64,000 bases of DNA, taken from sequence record OR896820.1; one strand, given 5' to 3'. The notes beneath the pieces were generated by a model. That model was not told where the DNA came from. It worked only from the letters and a program-made list of their open reading frames with translations, and did no database searches. This document shows, one piece after another, positions 10,962 through 15,926 of this stretch. This stretch comes from Escherchia phage Stokescottia. Numbering within the stretch: position 1 is the first letter of the stretch; each line of letters begins with the position of its first letter. The translations under genes and the position numbers were made by a program.

Positions 10962-11204
10962 TTACGATTCCTTGAGCAAAGAAGCAAGTTCAGCATAGAC
11001 TTTATCTAACTCAAAGCCGATGCGAAGAGACACGTTTGTTTTCCGTTGTTTAAGTAACCACTCGGATATGTTAGGGATGCCAGCTAATCTATGCGGTACC
11101 ACCCTACATAGCTTTTCCGAAGTGTCGTAAACAGGAACTTTACGTTCTTTTACTGGGAACTTCCTTGTTTCCCATTTTTTATTCTTCACTGTCATTTCTA
11201 GCAC
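10962..11204 (-). CDS. hypothetical protein
   Basis: 80-aa ORF. Confidence 0.3.
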   Translation of the reverse strand: MLEMTVKNKKWETRKFPVKERKVPVYDTSEKLCRVVPHRLAGIPNISEWLLKQRKTNVSLRIGFELDKVYAELASLLKES

Positions 11205-14046
11205 CTAGCTCTGCCATTGCTTCATCATGCATATGTTTCTCCTCATCAGTCATAAACTTATACGGGATTGGCATACACTCGATTTTACAATAGGTTCTGT
11301 ACCAGTCTACAATATTTTCAGTGTTCATATCCTTACCAATACCCATCATACCAAGATACATTCTGGCGTATTTTGGGTTAGCACTCTGGCCTGTTTTAAG
11401 GAAGAAATCTTTCTTCTTACCTTTCAGAGCTTCTATGAATGGTTTGATAGTGACATTTGAACACTTCTTAATATCTTCCCAGAACATCTCGTGCATTTTA
11501 TGGAAGAATGCCGCTCGATCATTCGGTTTATCCTTGATATACTGTTCAACATGCTCAACTGTTACATCTTTAATAGACTCAAGATGATAATAGCGAACAA
11601 GAAGTAGTTTAGCTTCATACGCATCTGCATGGCGTGGAGCACAATAATCAGGAGTTGAATACAAAATAGCTTTGATTCGCTCTTCCGTATACTCTTTTCC
11701 TGCACCTTCGATAGTTCCCCAGCTTTCACTGAAAATATCAATAGTTGCACCCTGATCAAGCAAGTAATAACGTAAAGTACTAGTATAATTCCTAGACTCC
11801 AGCTCCCTGCGACGTGCGTATAATTGCTGTGCTAACTCCAGCCAACCTTCATCAATGTTATATTGCTCAGAACCTGCGGAGAACCCACTCGTAGATTTAT
11901 CAATAAAATAATAAATGTTCTGAGCGCCACGGTCGCGCCTGATTGCTTGGAAACGCATGTTTGGCGCTTGGTTTGAGGTTCTAGTAATAACGAATACGTT
12001 ATCAAAGTAGTTAAAGTCAACACCACTTGTTACGGATGGACTACATAATAAGCAATCAATTTGTTGATCAATTAGCTCATTAGTTGTGTAATCCAGAATA
12101 CGTCTAATATCCACATCAGACGTAGAGTTTGAGTGGATTTCCTTAACTAACGCACCCGTATTACGACGCAGAGCCATACCCTTCTCATTCAGTTCATCCG
12201 GCCCACAGTCAGATACTAGGATAGATTTCTCCCCCATCTCTAGAGAAGTCTGAAGTGCAACCCAAATACTGGATTCATCCGGGAACTCATAAGCATGAGC
12301 TTTTGATAGCATTTTACGGTGATGATTATAAAATGCAACCGGTTTATCAAACTCAATCAAAGAACCATATGCTTCAATGGTTTCTGCACTAATATCCCCA
12401 TCAGATAATATAATGATTTTTGCAGTTGCAAGAATATCCCGAAGAACCTGAATACATTCACGACGTTGTTTAACAACCGGGGCGAATAATAGGTCATTCA
12501 TTACAGCATCACATTCATCGATAAAGATTGCATCAATTTGACCAATAAAACTCTTGAACTTATGCAAAGAATGTATAGTTGTGGACATACGGTCAATAGC
12601 GCCACGCTTAAAATTAAGCATATCTACAGACTTATCATATTGTCCTGCACTAAATTTCTTAGCATTTGAAGATACCAGTGCTCGAGTATTGGTAATTGCT
12701 AAGAAATTACCTTTAATAACTCCTGAATCTAACCAACGCACAACCGCTGTAGTTTTACCTGTACCTAGACTTGCTTTTACAAAAGTCATATAACCTTCTG
12801 GTGGTACAGTATTTAATTTCAAGAAGTTATCAGTTTCTAGAGAATTAGTTTCTAGCTTTTTAAGTGGAATACCTTTTAAAACATCAGGTATATCACGTTT
12901 AGAATTATTAACAAACGCTTTCAGAGCCTGTTTACGACCGTTATTAAAGTAATCTTGAATATTACGACTATTATCTTTAGTTGCAATATATTCTGATAAG
13001 GCTGGGCGGATTTCTTTTTCTAGCCATGCAAAATCAACACCATCCTCTAAAGCTCTGTGATAGAGTTTAGGAATAATACGTAGATACACTCCATCCTCAG
13101 CTTCTTCTAGTTCGCTGATAGTTTCCTCTACTTTATCAGAGGCAGCTTTTTTACCTTTAATTTGGTCGAGTAAAGAGTAAAACTCCTCCTTAAACTCACC
13201 TCTAGTTGTTTCATAGTCAACCAGATTATTAGGTAAATTTACTTTAGAACCCTTAACAAATACCAGACGTGAAGCACCCTCCGCTTTAAACGGATCTACT
13301 ATACCATCGGTAAATAACGGATCTGCAAAATAATGGAGCTGTACGGAAGAGTAATAAGCTAAGTCGGCAATATCAAAGCCATACTTTTGTCTACTACTTT
13401 CGTTGATAGATGTAAATAAGAATTTGATTTGACCCTGAGTTACTTTAACATTAGATTCTAGTATTAAGTGCATTCGGATACCTGGTTTTAGCCCAGCCGA
13501 AGACGATGCATGAGCGATAAACCCTGCATCAAGAGGAAACATATCCTCACTAATACTATTTAACATTCTAATAATATGTCTAGCCATGCCAACAAGATCA
13601 AACTTGTTACAACCACCTGTATCTACAATACCATCCACATCCATTGCAATTATATGGCTTGGGTTAGATACATTAAAGTTGCCCTTCTTACGCCGCACAT
13701 TATTTTTAGGTGCAAGACATCGACCTCGTACCGCAACGATATGAGGGTCAGACGTTAAACGTCTCATAAGAGGAAGCATTTCTACTAGAGTTTGCGGATC
13801 AACTTCATCAATTACATCAAACTTGAAGGGCATTGAAGCTGGTTTACCTTCAGGATGCTTTGAGGAGAATCTTTTAGCAAAAAGATAGTCTTCTGCTTTA
13901 ACTTCTCGCCAATTGCCTGTGGCTAAATCGCGATGAAATCCTGCATGACCTTGTAGGATTGAGAACACAACAATACTCCTGTGTTGGAAATGAAATAAGT
14001 TTTCTTTAGGACTATTCAGAAAGAATAGAACAACTGTTACTGTCAA
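11179..14046 (-). CDS. P-loop NTPase, helicase-like replication protein
   Basis: Walker A SLGTGKTTAV, Walker B IFIDECD, arginine-finger-like QAIRRDRG; ORF opens on TTG at 14046, first ATG is at 13833, so the true start is uncertain. Confidence 0.55.
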   Translation of the reverse strand: MTVTVVLFFLNSPKENLFHFQHRSIVVFSILQGHAGFHRDLATGNWREVKAEDYLFAKRFSSKHPEGKPASMPFKFDVIDEVDPQTLVEMLPLMRRLTSDPHIVAVRGRCLAPKNNVRRKKGNFNVSNPSHIIAMDVDGIVDTGGCNKFDLVGMARHIIRMLNSISEDMFPLDAGFIAHASSSAGLKPGIRMHLILESNVKVTQGQIKFLFTSINESSRQKYGFDIADLAYYSSVQLHYFADPLFTDGIVDPFKAEGASRLVFVKGSKVNLPNNLVDYETTRGEFKEEFYSLLDQIKGKKAASDKVEETISELEEAEDGVYLRIIPKLYHRALEDGVDFAWLEKEIRPALSEYIATKDNSRNIQDYFNNGRKQALKAFVNNSKRDIPDVLKGIPLKKLETNSLETDNFLKLNTVPPEGYMTFVKASLGTGKTTAVVRWLDSGVIKGNFLAITNTRALVSSNAKKFSAGQYDKSVDMLNFKRGAIDRMSTTIHSLHKFKSFIGQIDAIFIDECDAVMNDLLFAPVVKQRRECIQVLRDILATAKIIILSDGDISAETIEAYGSLIEFDKPVAFYNHHRKMLSKAHAYEFPDESSIWVALQTSLEMGEKSILVSDCGPDELNEKGMALRRNTGALVKEIHSNSTSDVDIRRILDYTTNELIDQQIDCLLCSPSVTSGVDFNYFDNVFVITRTSNQAPNMRFQAIRRDRGAQNIYYFIDKSTSGFSAGSEQYNIDEGWLELAQQLYARRRELESRNYTSTLRYYLLDQGATIDIFSESWGTIEGAGKEYTEERIKAILYSTPDYCAPRHADAYEAKLLLVRYYHLESIKDVTVEHVEQYIKDKPNDRAAFFHKMHEMFWEDIKKCSNVTIKPFIEALKGKKKDFFLKTGQSANPKYARMYLGMMGIGKDMNTENIVDWYRTYCKIECMPIPYKFMTDEEKHMHDEAMAELGARNDSEE

Positions 14047-14503
14047 TTTCTCAACAAATTAATTGCAAATACTGAAGTGGGGTGGCAACTTCCACTTTCA
14101 CGCTGCGCTGCTGCTTTGCTATACCGCACAAATCCTTGAGGATGGCCGCTAAGCCAGATTTGCTCACCTAATGCTTCATATACTAGCTCATACTAGATGC
14201 AATATAACTTACAGAATCACGTCTCGGAGTTTTTCACTCCTCCCGTCTCACTTCACAACCACCTCTATCTAGGTTGCTTCGAGGCCTTACCAGGGTTCCT
14301 ACGGGACGCAGATCGCTAAGTATTCTATTAACTATTTGTTTAAAAACCAACACGTAACAGTTAAAACAACCCTTAATGGGGCAGCCTAACTGTTCCGTAT
14401 CGCGGATTGTAAACAAGAAAAATTAGCAAAATCAATTTTTACTAATGTCTCTCATTTATGGGAATATTATACTATAAAATAATACTCCCTTGCAAATGAA
14501 ATT

Positions 14504-14956
14504 TTACTGAATTGATTCCCTACCATATAATTGGCCCCTAAACATCTTGGCCATAGAACATGCAACTTCATAGTTATCATATGTTCCTTTAACTACTCGT
14601 TTACGATTAATAGTAAATACTACTTGCCAGTTCTTACTACCAGAAGGGTAAACATGCATTCCTTTCTTATATTTGGTATTTCTTAGATTACCAGTTACTG
14701 TCTGATCCCTAAGATTTTCAATACGATCATCGCCTTTTATAGTGTTCTCATGATCTACCAAATCAGGTAAGTATCCATGATGCATTAAGAAGATAGCTCT
14801 GTGTCGGAGCATAGTTCTACTCCCTAGAGAAATACGGTAATAACCATTCCCCGTTGAAACACAACATTCCTTGCCTGCATTTCTTCCTGTAGTTCTAAAT
14901 AATTTTCCATCTTCATATCGGAAATTATCTAAAAGTTCTTGTTGTGTGAGCGACAT
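14504..14956 (-). CDS. HNH homing endonuclease
   Basis: HNH motif HHGYLPD..VDHENTIKGDDRIENLR; ATG at 14956 has GGAGG SD. Confidence 0.75.
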   Translation of the reverse strand: MSLTQQELLDNFRYEDGKLFRTTGRNAGKECCVSTGNGYYRISLGSRTMLRHRAIFLMHHGYLPDLVDHENTIKGDDRIENLRDQTVTGNLRNTKYKKGMHVYPSGSKNWQVVFTINRKRVVKGTYDNYEVACSMAKMFRGQLYGRESIQ

Positions 14957-15098
14957 CTTTACCTCCAATACATATATTATTACATAATCCATCCAATTTG
15001 TCAATGACAATTTATTCATACTGTCAATTAACTGGAAAGATTAGGTAATAATCCGAGCACTAATAGCCCGGATTATAGAGTTCAGCTAATAAAAATCA

Positions 15099-15488
15099 TT
15101 AGTCACTTAACCCCGGAACATAGATCCCAACACGGTTTAATTGTTCTTTAGCTTCTTTGAGTATATCTGGAGTGTACTCCCAAATATCATCTTCCACCTG
15201 TAAAAGATGGGGCGAACAACCGTCATCAGGCACACGACATATGGCCAAACCACGTGGATGGAACAAAGAGAAATTTAGGGCAACAATTAAACCCATAGCA
15301 GACAATTCATTCCAATCCAATTCCCATTCCCCGGCGTATCCAGACAGGAAAATGCCAATGCATGGATCATCTATTTGCTGCTCCGGAAAAGTGAAGGAGG
15401 CTTGTCTTACCCCCAACCAACGTTGTAGCAGCTTCTCCGCACGTTTCACCAAACTAGGGTCAATCTGACGCCAATATACTTGTTCCAT
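15099..15488 (-). CDS. hypothetical protein, tandem paralog A
   Basis: 129 aa; shares CIGxxL...W.ELDEMGL..ALN..LF.P...Y.PGL pattern with the adjacent ORF. Confidence 0.45.
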   Translation of the reverse strand: MEQVYWRQIDPSLVKRAEKLLQRWLGVRQASFTFPEQQIDDPCIGIFLSGYAGEWELDWNELSAMGLIVALNFSLFHPRGLAICRVPDDGCSPHLLQVEDDIWEYTPDILKEAKEQLNRVGIYVPGLSD

Positions 15489-15497
15489 CCTGCCTCC

Positions 15498-15926
15498 TTA
15501 AGCAGTTAAACCTGGGATCATATACCCGAAACGTCGAAGTTTCTGAATCCCATCATTTACTTCTTCCGGTGAGTAAGACCAACCATAACGTTCATTAACC
15601 TGAAAACCAGGAGATTCACTAGTTTTATAGTTAACAACGAGGCGATGCTTAGCAGGCATAAACAGCTTATAGTTTAACGCAAAAACTAAGCCCATTTCAT
15701 CTAACTCTTTCCAGCCGACAATCTCTTCAAGACCCTCCTCTACCTGAACAATTAAACCAATACAGGGGGCCTCATCAATATCATCTTTAAAAGCAAAGGA
15801 GATTTCGTTATTCTCACACCATATTTTCAAAGAGTTAATAGCCTTATTATACAGGCTAGCTGGGAGAGTACGCCAAAAGTTAACCAAAATTGGGTTAGCT
15901 TCTTTAGAGAATACATTATTAAACAT
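15498..15926 (-). CDS. hypothetical protein, tandem paralog B
   Basis: 142 aa; paralog of 15099..15488. Confidence 0.45.
   Translation of the reverse strand: MFNNVFSKEANPILVNFWRTLPASLYNKAINSLKIWCENNEISFAFKDDIDEAPCIGLIVQVEEGLEEIVGWKELDEMGLVFALNYKLFMPAKHRLVVNYKTSESPGFQVNERYGWSYSPEEVNDGIQKLRRFGYMIPGLTA

What the first reader, a model, noticed from the sequence alone, without database searches (positions are those of the whole stretch)
14047..15019. Free-standing HNH endonuclease with a 450 nt non-coding flank
The HNH gene sits between the helicase-like gene and the paralog pair and is followed on the minus strand by ~450 nt without a credible ORF before the helicase-like gene. This may mark a homing-endonuclease insertion site. 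The start of the helicase-like gene is also ambiguous (TTG at 14046 versus ATG at 13833), so part of the flank could be its 5' UTR or a decayed exon.
Basis: inference. Interest (0 to 1): 0.45.

Follow-up and report, generated by a model that had tools for sequence, protein, structure and literature searches.

The report
Structured leader RNA beside mobile HNH
The HNH gene is an ordinary optional mobile insert of T5-like phages. The "empty" DNA after it is an ancestral ~490-nt leader in front of the D2 replication helicase gene, and it folds into a large conserved RNA structure that matches no catalogued RNA family.

Summary
The window comes from a T5-like phage (Tequintavirus), with genes on the minus strand.

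- **HNH gene.** It is real (Pfam HNH_3). It most likely starts at ATG 14956, giving 150 aa rather than 171 aa.
- **Helicase-like gene.** It is the T5 D2 / "origin-binding" helicase. It starts at GTG 13968, not TTG 14046 or ATG 13833. The non-coding gap is therefore 535 nt.
- **HNH cassette.** It spans about 14455-15076 and carries its own promoter. Orthologues occur in only 42 of about 445 related phage records.
- **The flank.** It is present in all of those records, including HNH-less T5, so it is not an insertion scar or a decayed exon.

The flank is the leader of D2 mRNA, about 491 nt long, read from a conserved T5-type early promoter. It is predicted to fold into a 5' hairpin, a 26-nt conserved box, a 45-57-bp long-range "rod" helix and a ~205-nt branched head. 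The head carries an invariant xCU-UAGC-GGx' hairpin.

Compensatory base changes support the fold within and between lineages. About 16% of pairs are G·U, and the sense strand folds 10-45 kcal/mol better than the antisense strand. No Rfam family matches, no conserved ORF is present, and there are no iterons.

Function is untested. My best guess is a cis-acting, probably RNase III-processed, leader or excised RNA linked to D2 expression or replication initiation.

The parts
11179..13968 (-). D2 helicase / 'replication origin binding protein' CDS (929 aa), start GTG 13968-13966
   Evidence: PHROG 3712 matches residues 1-926 of 927. Pfam Herpes_ori_bp matches. It is the homologue of the T5 D2 bipolar helicase (PMC3632103).
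13976..13980 (-). Shine-Dalgarno AGGAG of D2, 7 nt before the GTG
   Evidence: It is conserved in all related loci.
13969..14459 (-). ~491-nt structured 5' leader RNA of D2 mRNA. The TSS near 14459 is inferred and not mapped.
   Evidence: Folding z = -3.9. Covariation. Sense strand folds better than antisense. No Rfam hit.
14466..14495 (-). T5-type early promoter for the leader: TTGCAA, 18-nt spacer, TATAAT, then ATT discriminator
   Evidence: The equivalent site is annotated as a promoter in AKFV33. The ATATT discriminator is reported for T5 early promoters (PMC7472727).
14415..14453 (-). Hairpin H1 (GAGAGA.AUUAGUAAAA / UUUUGCUAAU.UUUUCU) followed by a U-tract
   Evidence: The stem covaries in DU_PP_V and My1 (reading of the sequences). 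Shivani's annotators called it a terminator. The tool's terminator scan did not call it.
14371..14401 (-). Most conserved primary-sequence box, GAUACGGAACAGUUAGGCUGCCCCAU, with a small hairpin CAGU/GCUG
   Evidence: In L048 the small stem changes from CAG/CUG to CGG/CCG.
14319..14363 (-). Rod helix, 5' strand, in blocks of 10+11+5+5+7 bp
   Evidence: It pairs with 14031-14073.
14031..14073 (-). Rod helix, 3' strand. Its base ends 62 nt before the D2 start codon.
   Evidence: RNAduplex finds 41-57 bp with z -3.4 to -6.0 in W-type, A-type, DU_PP_V and My1 leaders; weaker in L048 (z -2.0) and not significant in the Klebsiella type.
14306..14316 (-). Helix iii, 5' strand (GCG..CUGCGU), closing the head
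   Evidence: CUGCG/CGCAG, CUGUG/CACAG and CUACA/UGUAG all occur.
14100..14108 (-). Helix iii, 3' strand (GCGCAG.CGU)
14242..14305 (-). Head domain A: three-way junction (Pa CCCGU/ACGGG, Pb CCU-GGUA-AGG, Pc CUCG..GCAACC/GGUUGU..UGAG)
   Evidence: (14 of 24 pairs compensatory across four lineages).
14226..14240 (-). Hairpin Pd (GGAGU-GAAAA-ACUCC)
   Evidence: GGAG/CUCC changes to GAAG/CUCU.
14208..14225 (-). Conserved unpaired linker GAGA(C/A)GUGAU..UGUAAG
   Evidence: It is conserved from the W-type to the Klebsiella phage leaders.
14110..14199 (-). Head domain B. It contains hairpin B2 (14128-14163) with the invariant CUUAGCGG (UAGC loop) and a 7-9-nt 3' bulge.
   Evidence: Model R1 hits 14122-14170 once, on the sense strand. 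10 of 13 pairs are compensatory and 0 of 500 shuffles reach that value.
14075..14097 (-). Hairpin v (AAGUGG / CCACUU), branching from the 3' strand of the rod
   Evidence: U-A changes to G-C in the W-type. The A-type has an entirely different sequence (AUAUGA/UCAUAU) that still forms a hairpin.
14012..14028 (-). Small invariant hairpin CUAUUC-UUUCU-GAAUAG between the rod and the ribosome-binding site
14455..15076 (-). HNH cassette (622 nt). It replaces about 115 nt of terminator plus promoter found in HNH-less T5-type genomes.
   Evidence: Alignment A1. The cassette is present in 5 of the 34 leaders compared (the window plus 4 of 33 related loci) and in 42 of 441 records.
14504..14956 (-). HNH endonuclease CDS (150 aa), ATG 14956, Shine-Dalgarno GGAGG 14966-14962
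14976..15004 (-). Promoter-like site of the cassette (TTGACA, 17-nt spacer, TG-AATAAT; 11 of 12 matches)
15048..15076 (-). Inverted repeat at the upstream edge of the cassette, with no U-run. It replaces the native terminator after the DUF7415 gene.
   Evidence: (repeat I18).
15099..15488 (-). Upstream neighbour: DUF7415 paralogue (129 aa). Context only.

Best explanation
Two independent things sit side by side.

**1. The HNH cassette.** It spans about 14455-15076 and holds an edge hairpin, its own promoter, an SD, a 150-aa HNH_3 endonuclease and a replacement promoter. It is an optional free-standing homing-endonuclease-type insertion. It landed between the terminator of the DUF7415 gene and the early promoter of the D2 helicase gene.

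**2. The "flank".** It is the ancestral ~491-nt 5' leader of D2 mRNA.

*Shown by the data:*
- The leader is conserved in length and position in all enterobacterial T5-like phages, with or without the HNH gene.
- It is non-coding.
- Its sense-strand RNA has a conserved architecture:
  - 5' hairpin H1 plus a U-tract;
  - a 26-nt conserved box;
  - a 45-57-bp interrupted long-range rod (14363-14319 paired with 14073-14031);
  - a ~205-nt head made of a three-way junction, hairpin Pd, a conserved linker, domain B with the invariant xCU-UAGC-GGx' hairpin, and hairpin v.

*Inferred:*
- Transcription starts near 14459 from the conserved T5-type early promoter and runs into D2.
- The base of the rod is a near-perfect duplex of 20 bp or more, ending 62 nt before the start codon. 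It looks like an RNase III processing stalk. Cleavage there would separate D2 mRNA from the head RNA.
- The head, with its invariant loops, is a binding module for a protein or ligand. That would tie D2 expression, or replication initiation, to that partner.
For: **HNH mobility**
- The gene matches Pfam HNH_3 and phrog_99.
- Orthologues at 90% identity or more are in only 42 records, and all other hits are below 60%.
- T5_ev212 lacks the gene.
- It occurs with both leader alleles.
- A different small gene (phrog_29527) occupies the same spot in other relatives.

**Leader is ancestral**
- The 457-nt flank matches 445 phage records.
- The start codon and SD are at the same place in 35 loci, and the gap is about 610 nt even in 69-75%-identical relatives.

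**Structure**
- Folding energy z = -3.9.
- Cross-lineage RNAalifold: 23 of 49 pairs are compensatory, including the long-range helices.
- The rod is recovered independently in the W-type, A-type, DU_PP_V and My1 leaders at 41-57 bp, z -3.4 to -6.0.
- W-type alignment: 136 pairs, 99.8% of cells paired, 5 compensatory pairs (23 cells, 0 of 500 shuffles), and one-sided changes nearly all wobble-compatible.
- A-type alignment: 145 pairs, 99.5% paired, 12 compensatory pairs against 0-1 in the slid controls.
- Hairpin B2: 10 of 13 pairs compensatory, 0 of 500 shuffles.
- Domain A: 14 of 24 pairs compensatory.

**Strand**
- G·U pairs number 347 against 3 A·C cells and 323 against 5.
- The sense strand folds 10-45 kcal/mol better than the antisense strand in 10 lineages.
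- Model R1 hits once per locus, always on the D2-sense strand.

**Promoter**
-, the AKFV33 annotation and the ATATT discriminator of T5 early promoters (PMC7472727).

**Not a known RNA**
- No Rfam hit in the window or in 10 diverse loci.
Against: - There are no experimental data. No transcript map, TSS or processing site for this region was found in the literature searched.
- RNase III cleavage is inferred from helix geometry alone.
- The pairing of the U-tract with the SD appears in two consensus folds. It is not supported by single-sequence partition functions. The A-type consensus pairs the U-tract with the AAAGAAAA box instead.
- The closing stem of domain B differs between predictions.
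- Many sequences are close relatives, so the shuffle controls overstate significance. The independent lineages number only about 7-8.
- The rod is weak in the Klebsiella-phage leaders (z -0.1 to -0.8).
- No homologue was detected by model R1 in Vibrio, Aeromonas or marine Demerecviridae.
Confidence: 0.8

Rival explanations
1. The region is the phage's origin of replication, or an origin-associated primer RNA. The D2 initiator helicase would bind DNA sites next to its own gene, or the promoter-driven structured transcript would form an R-loop or primer, as with ColE1 RNA II or T4 oriF/oriG.
For: - It lies directly upstream of the gene for the presumed initiator, which has a Herpes_ori_bp domain and was proposed as the replication initiation protein (PMC3632103).
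- It has a strong conserved promoter followed by about 490 nt of non-coding sequence.
- The 26-nt box is conserved in sequence more than by covariation.
- It lies near the middle of the T5 genome (about 59.0-59.5 kb of 121.75 kb; L023).
Against: - There are no iterons or tandem repeats.
- The region is richer in G+C than its surroundings (0.44 against 0.34-0.38), so there is no AT-rich unwinding element.
- Variation follows RNA pairing rules with abundant G·U on one strand. A duplex-DNA binding site would not impose that.
- The two AACAGUU/AACUGUU copies covary as partners instead of staying identical.
- A structured primer RNA is not excluded by any of this.
Confidence: 0.15
2. The head is a trans-acting stable non-coding RNA. 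It could be a scaffold, a decoy for a host factor or defence system, or a ribozyme. It would merely be produced from the D2 leader by excision at the rod, much as rRNAs are excised from their processing stalks.
For: - A rod base of 20 bp or more brackets a ~290-nt module in every lineage.
- Loops and linkers are invariant across lineages (CUUAGCGG, GAGAAGUG).
- Its complexity is comparable to other large non-coding RNAs, and it is in no Rfam family.
- Two unalignable head alleles keep the same architecture.
Against: - There is no evidence for a stable processed species.
- Its position is strictly tied to D2 in all loci, which favours a cis role.
- blastn found no similarity to host sequences.
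Confidence: 0.2
3. The leader is a riboswitch or an autogenous translational operator. A metabolite, D2 itself or another early protein would bind the head and switch alternative pairings (H1 extension against U-tract-3' pairing) to control D2 translation or premature termination at H1.
For: - The U-tract after H1 can pair with 5' GAGAGA, with the AAAGAAAA box or with the SD.
- Shivani's annotators flagged H1 plus its U-run as a terminator.
- The AACAGUU / AACUGUUAC / GUAACAGUU triad allows alternative helices.
Against: - Partition functions do not show consistent SD sequestration.
- The tool's terminator scan does not call H1.
- Covariation supports the long-range pairing and not the local alternative.
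- A 50-bp rod is atypical for riboswitches.
- No known aptamer matches.
Confidence: 0.2
4. The flank is non-functional: a scar or leftover of HNH homing, a decayed exon, or missed small protein genes.
For: - Mechanical ORFs of 60 and 38 aa exist.
- A few genome records annotate hypothetical proteins here.
Against: - The flank is present in HNH-less genomes.
- The ORFs have no family, weak start codons and variable length.
- The D2 N-terminus is complete from residue 1.
- There is no group I or group II intron signal.
- Substitutions follow base-pairing and not codon patterns.
Confidence: 0.03

Closest known systems
Free-standing HNH homing endonucleases of T5-like phages (F-Tfl / I-Tfl family nicking HNH enzymes)
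   Same: - It has an HNH_3 domain.
- It is small and intergenic, with its own promoter and SD.
- It shows presence/absence polymorphism between near-identical genomes.
- Distant hits of about 33% identity include genes annotated as F-TflVIII-family.
   Different: - It is only about 30-35% identical to those enzymes.
- Its target site and its cleavage or nicking activity are untested.
- It sits upstream of D2 and not in the tRNA region.
RNase III processing stalks (rRNA operon stems; phage T7 early-region R sites; lambda N leader)
   Same: - A long-range or local dsRNA helix of 20 bp or more lies in a phage early transcript.
- The helix brackets a module and precedes a coding region.
- It is maintained by compensatory change.
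   Different: - No cleavage has been demonstrated.
- The bracketed module is a ~205-nt conserved branched RNA of unknown function. It is not an rRNA or a simple hairpin.
- The helix is 45-57 bp long with several internal loops.
ColE1 RNA II / T4 oriF-oriG origin transcripts
   Same: - A promoter-driven structured transcript of about 500 nt lies next to replication functions.
- Folding would matter for function.
   Different: - Here the transcript continues into, and presumably serves as mRNA for, the initiator helicase.
- There is no evidence of R-loop formation and no AT-rich unwinding element.
Large phage-associated structured non-coding RNAs (GOLLD, ROOL) and other large bacterial ncRNAs (OLE, raiA, HEARO)
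   Same: - It is several hundred nucleotides long, with multi-branched architecture, conserved loops and covariation.
- Its biochemical function is unknown.
- It is carried by a phage.
   Different: - It matches none of these Rfam models.
- It is fixed in the 5' leader of one particular gene.
- It is restricted to enterobacterial T5-like phages.
Autogenous translational operators of phage replication genes (T4 gene 32 pseudoknot, gene 43 operator)
   Same: A structured leader lies directly upstream of a replication gene.
   Different: - It is about ten times larger.
- No demonstrated overlap of a protein-binding site with the ribosome-binding site.
- SD occlusion is not supported thermodynamically.

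Membership tests
Free-standing HNH homing endonuclease gene | HNH (beta-beta-alpha-metal) nuclease domain | tested here: met
   Pfam PF13392 HNH_3 at E 2.3e-9, 37.2 bits against a cut-off of 24.8. phrog_99 at E 3e-40.
Free-standing HNH homing endonuclease gene | Not embedded in an intron or intein; has its own expression signals | tested here: met
   It is intergenic, between the DUF7415 gene and the D2 leader. It has a promoter-like site at 15004-14976 and GGAGG at 14966-14962. There is no intron model hit.
Free-standing HNH homing endonuclease gene | Sporadic presence at one locus among close relatives | tested here: met
   42 of about 441-445 records and 5 of the 34 leaders compared, the window plus 4 of 33 related loci. 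It is found with both leader alleles.
Free-standing HNH homing endonuclease gene | Site-specific cleavage or nicking of the endonuclease-less allele, and biased inheritance | not testable with these tools
   This needs an enzyme assay on T5-type DNA (the region equivalent to 14455-15076) and mixed-infection crosses.
Group I / group II intron with an endonuclease ORF | Interrupts a host gene, with a conserved ribozyme core | tested here: not met
   The D2 ORF is complete from residue 1. No intron family appears even at E up to 10.
Any Rfam 15 RNA family | Covariance-model match at or near the gathering score | tested here: not met
   Only tRNAs were found elsewhere in the window. Nothing relevant appeared at E up to 10 in 13700-15200 or in 10 related loci.
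RNase III-processed leader / processing stalk | dsRNA helix of about 20 bp or more | tested here: met
   The rod base has 10+11 bp in the window. In relatives it has 12+7, 13+6, 14+6 and about 24 bp.
RNase III-processed leader / processing stalk | Helix conserved by compensatory change | tested here: met
   The rod forms from unrelated sequences in the W- and A-type alleles.
RNase III-processed leader / processing stalk | Cleavage by RNase III in vivo or in vitro | not testable with these tools
   This needs rnc+/rnc- comparison or an in vitro cleavage assay.
Iteron- or DUE-type replication origin | Repeated initiator-binding sites and an AT-rich unwinding element | tested here: not met
   There are no tandem repeats and only short two-copy repeats. 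G+C is higher than in the flanks.
Riboswitch / attenuator | Mutually exclusive terminator/antiterminator or SD/anti-SD helices coupled to an aptamer | tested here: inconclusive
   Alternative partners for the U-tract exist. SD occlusion is not consistent. H1 is not a canonical terminator by the scan.

The most novel reading that the evidence does not exclude
The D2 leader of T5-like phages would hold a previously unrecognised class of large structured RNA: a ~205-nt head on a ~50-bp stalk, about 290 nt when excised. It would be released by RNase III and act as a functional RNA in its own right. For example, it could be an RNA cofactor or scaffold for D2-dependent replication initiation (an RNA-defined origin), or a decoy against a host factor or defence system.
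Probability: 0.25. Interest if true: 0.8.

Novelty: new variant of a known kind. Interest (0 to 1): 0.6.

Why it matters
- T5 has been a model phage for about 70 years, yet its replication origin and the control of its replication genes remain undefined.
- A ~490-nt leader with strong covariation sits directly in front of the presumed initiator helicase D2. It gives a concrete, testable handle on both questions.
- It also adds a candidate to the short list of large structured RNAs without a known function.
- On the practical side, it corrects the start of the D2 gene and of the HNH gene.
- It warns annotators that the small "hypothetical proteins" sometimes called in this gap are very probably not genes.
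- The HNH cassette itself is ordinary. It is useful as a marker, because it shows that insertions are tolerated just upstream of the leader's transcription start and not within the leader's structured body. The one insertion seen inside the leader, 97 nt right after H1, lies upstream of the rod and head.

Tried and rejected
- **Known RNA families.** Rfam scans at gathering and at permissive thresholds on the window and on 10 related loci found nothing beyond tRNAs elsewhere. ARAGORN found no tRNA or tmRNA in the region.
- **Intron or decayed exon.** Rejected, because D2 is complete from residue 1.
- **Small ORFs in the flank.** They match no family and are not conserved.
- **Iterons and tandem repeats.** None found.
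- **Host mimicry.** blastn against 5,426 E. coli genomes gave no match.
- **Homologues outside T5-like phages.**
  - The 17-nt motif scan of genome contigs gave only scattered hits in unrelated bacteria. The number is what chance predicts for a collection of that size.
  - The six extra viral contigs with the motif lack hairpin B2.
- **Distant relatives.** Model R1 finds nothing in Vibrio, Aeromonas or marine relatives. Their long gaps upstream of D2 were folded but gave no clear result.
- **SD sequestration by the U-tract.** It is suggested by consensus folds but not by partition functions, so it was demoted.
- **Structure-aware alignment.** mafft-qinsi is not installed, so I used group-wise alignments and a covariance model instead.
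- **Literature.** I found no paper on this leader, on a mapped T5 origin at this site, or on T5 RNase III processing. Bourguignon 1976 is not held.
- **Metagenome scan.** It added only 13 loci, and most are near-identical or too distant to help.
Full report
**What the window is.** The window is from a T5-like phage. The 2-kb locus is 96.8% identical to Escherichia phage YJin-2024a and matches 441 Tequintavirus/Epseptimavirus records. The window also carries the typical block of 21 tRNA genes. All genes around the finding are on the minus strand.

**Checking the observation.**
- The ORF at 14504-15019 encodes an HNH endonuclease. It matches Pfam HNH_3 at E 2e-9 and phrog_99 at E 3e-40.
- Its probable start is ATG 14956, preceded by GGAGG at 14966-14962, giving 150 aa.
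  - Orthologues in AKFV33 and Shivani are annotated as 453 nt.
  - A strong promoter-like site (TTGACA, 17-nt spacer, TG-AATAAT) at 15004-14976 lies inside the longer reading frame.
- The "helicase-like gene" is the homologue of T5 D2, the bipolar SF2 helicase with a herpes-UL9-like origin-binding-protein domain (PMC3632103).
- Its start is GTG 13968, preceded by AGGAG.
  - All 35 related loci have the start codon and SD at this exact position, and the codon is ATG there in relatives 69-75% identical.
  - The CDS is then 2790 nt, as annotated in T5_ev212, AKFV33 and Shivani.
  - PHROG 3712 aligns residues 1-926 of 927.
- The gap is 13969-14503, which is 535 nt. The two mechanical ORFs inside it have TTG/GTG starts and match no family. 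The 60-aa ORF is truncated to 50 aa in close relatives and absent in more distant ones.

**The HNH gene is an optional cassette.**
- The window was aligned with HNH-less T5_ev212 and with AKFV33 and Shivani (A1). About 115 nt of T5 sequence is replaced here by 622 nt (about 15076-14455).
  - The replaced T5 sequence is the terminator after the DUF7415 gene plus the native promoter region.
  - The 622 nt holds an edge hairpin, a promoter, the HNH gene and a substitute promoter.
- Identity resumes at TGAGAGAC (14454), a few bases after the inferred transcription start of the leader.
- Orthologues at 90% identity or more are found in exactly 42 phage records, and everything else is below 60%. The same 42 records are the ones that cover at least 80% of the 2-kb locus.
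- The cassette occurs with both alleles of the downstream leader.
- In Shivani and SHSML-45 it carries a duplicated copy of the promoter plus the first leader hairpin.
- Other relatives carry a different 64-65-aa gene (phrog_29527) at the same place.
- This is the expected behaviour of a free-standing homing-endonuclease gene in an insertion hotspot. Enzymatic homing itself is untested.

**The flank is ancestral and is not a scar.**
- The 457-nt flank alone matches 445 phage records, most without the HNH gene, including T5.
- The distance from the stop of the upstream DUF7415 gene to the D2 start is about 610-620 nt in nearly all HNH-less loci. That includes Klebsiella (Sugarland-type), Pectobacterium DU_PP_V and My1 relatives.

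**The flank is a structured RNA.**
- A conserved T5-type early promoter sits at its 5' end (TTGCAA, 18-nt spacer, TATAAT at 14495-14466). AKFV33's authors annotated it, and it carries the ATATT discriminator reported for T5 early promoters.
- By analogy with T5 promoter PN25 (my recollection of its sequence), transcription would start near A14459, giving a 491-nt leader.
- The leader folds with z = -3.9 against dinucleotide shuffles.
- The consensus fold of 8 diverse leaders has 49 pairs, 23 of them with compensatory changes. These include three long-range helices.
- Mapped on the window, the elements are:

| Element | Coordinates (minus strand) |
|---|---|
| H1 | 14453-14415 |
| Conserved box GAUACGGAACAGUUAGGCUGCCCCAU | 14401-14371 |
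| Rod (10+11+5+5+7 bp) | 14363-14319 paired with 14073-14031 |
| Helix iii | 14316-14306 paired with 14108-14100 |
| Domain A (three-way junction) | 14305-14242 |
| Hairpin Pd | 14240-14226 |
| Conserved linker GAGACGUGAU...UGUAAG | 14225-14208 |
| Domain B, with hairpin B2 | 14199-14110; B2 at 14163-14128 |
| Hairpin v | 14097-14075 |
| Small 3' hairpin | 14028-14012 |
| SD and GTG start | 13980-13976 and 13968 |

**Strength of the structural evidence.**
1. *Hairpin B2.* A covariance model built on it (R1) hits exactly once per locus, always on the D2-sense strand. The hits cover Tequintavirus, Epseptimavirus, Klebsiella, Pectobacterium and Providencia phages and two uncultured relatives. 10 of its 13 pairs show changes on both sides, and 0 of 500 shuffles reach that value. 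The slid controls are clearly lower. The closing pair of the invariant CU-UAGC-GG covaries as G-C, A-U and C-G.
2. *W-type leaders* (16 distinct sequences). 136 predicted pairs are 99.8% paired. Five pairs change on both sides (23 cells, 0 of 500 shuffles). Nearly all the one-sided changes are A-U/G·U or U-A/U·G switches.
3. *A-type leaders* (15 sequences). 145 pairs are 99.5% paired. Twelve are compensatory, against 0-1 when partners are slid.
4. *Domain A.* 14 of 24 pairs are compensatory across the W-type, DU_PP_V, My1 and an uncultured relative.
5. *The rod.* RNAduplex recovers it independently from unrelated sequences, with 41-57 bp at z -3.4 to -6.0 in the W-type, A-type, DU_PP_V and My1 leaders. 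It is weaker in L048 (51 bp, z -2.0) and not significant in the Klebsiella type.
6. *Strand.*
   - About 16% of paired cells are G·U, against 3-5 A·C cells.
   - The sense strand folds 10-45 kcal/mol better than the antisense strand in ten lineages, and consensus folds agree.
   - The structure therefore belongs to the D2-sense RNA. It does not belong to duplex DNA or to an antisense transcript.

*Caveat.* Many sequences are close relatives, so the shuffle statistics are generous. The independent support comes from about 7-8 lineages and from the two unalignable head alleles that keep the same architecture.

**What it is not.**
- No Rfam family matches, either in the window or in ten related loci at E up to 10.
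- There is no tRNA or tmRNA and no intron.
- There are no iterons or tandem repeats, and the region is richer in G+C than its flanks.
- blastn finds no similarity to E. coli genomes.
- No copies exist outside T5-like phages.
- The literature I could search does not describe it. A large 2023 catalogue of candidate phage RNAs does not mention this family or gene. An unnamed entry in its supplementary data cannot be excluded.

**Most likely mechanism (inference).**
- The leader is made from the early promoter and is continuous with D2 mRNA.
- The base of the rod is a near-perfect duplex of 20 bp or more in every lineage. It ends a constant ~62 nt before the start codon. This is the geometry of RNase III processing stalks.
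- I therefore propose that RNase III cuts there. That would mature the D2 mRNA and release the head on the remaining stalk.
- The head's invariant loops and linker would then be a binding surface for a protein, possibly D2 itself, or for a ligand.
- Translational control by pairing of the post-H1 U-tract with the SD appeared in two consensus folds. It is not robust: the A-type consensus pairs the U-tract with the AAAGAAAA box, and partition functions show no consistent SD occlusion.
- Rival readings remain open: an origin or primer RNA, a trans-acting RNA, or a riboswitch-like operator. A scar or small-ORF reading is effectively excluded.

**Verdict.** The HNH part of the finding is ordinary and already known in kind. 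It is a large, conserved, covariation-supported leader RNA of the D2 helicase gene of T5-like phages, absent from Rfam and of unknown function.

Noticed in passing
L011 about 2450-2550; also L025, L035, L057 (window equivalent: between 14415 and 14412): A 97-nt insertion sits in the leader right after hairpin H1. It is flanked by TTTTTCTT direct repeats and is itself predicted to fold. It is found in both W- and A-type leaders, so it looks like a small mobile or optional RNA module.
   Followed up: partly
L004 2200-2397; also L008, L010, L035 (same position as the HNH cassette in the window, about 15076): A different 64-65-aa gene (phrog_29527, unknown function) occupies the same site as the HNH cassette. 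The spot between the DUF7415 terminator and the D2 leader promoter is an insertion hotspot.
   Followed up: partly
L003 (Shivani) 2300-2520 and L028 (SHSML-45): In these phages the HNH cassette brings a second copy of the promoter plus leader hairpin H1. The junction lies at a TTTTCT microhomology, so the leader 5' end is duplicated.
   Followed up: partly
window 14109-14305, compared with L015 / L023 (T5 reference) about 2660-2870: The head of the leader exists as two sequence-unalignable alleles. The W-type is in this window and T5_ev212. The A-type is in reference T5, AKFV33 and Epseptimavirus. Only islands are shared (GAUCUG, GGCUUAGCGGCC, AGCNCAGC), yet the helix architecture is the same. 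The boundaries coincide with conserved blocks, which suggests recombinational exchange of the module.
   Followed up: partly
window 14136-14143; L032 about 2833-2840: The 3' bulge of hairpin B2 is pyrimidine-rich (AUCCUCA here). In Pectobacterium phage DU_PP_V it reads CCUCCUUA, identical to the anti-Shine-Dalgarno end of 16S rRNA. This could be chance or an internal anti-SD mimic.
   Followed up: no
L040 (Vibrio phage Wyman) 1034-1871; L041 1273-2000: Distant Demerecviridae also have unusually long gaps (about 730-840 nt) upstream of their D2 homologues. They give no hit to model R1, and the folding signal is weak (z -2.5 and 0.3). The family may hold analogous but unrecognisable leaders.
   Followed up: partly
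window 15099-15926: The "paralog pair" upstream consists of two DUF7415 proteins (129 and 142 aa, about 32% identical to each other), conserved across T5-like phages. Their function is unknown.
   Followed up: no
window 14024-14032, 14355-14363, 14384-14390: There are three copies of the near-palindromic heptamer AACAGUU/AACUGUU. The second and third pair as the base of the rod and covary together. The first lies in the invariant 5' box and could form an alternative helix with the second.
   Followed up: partly
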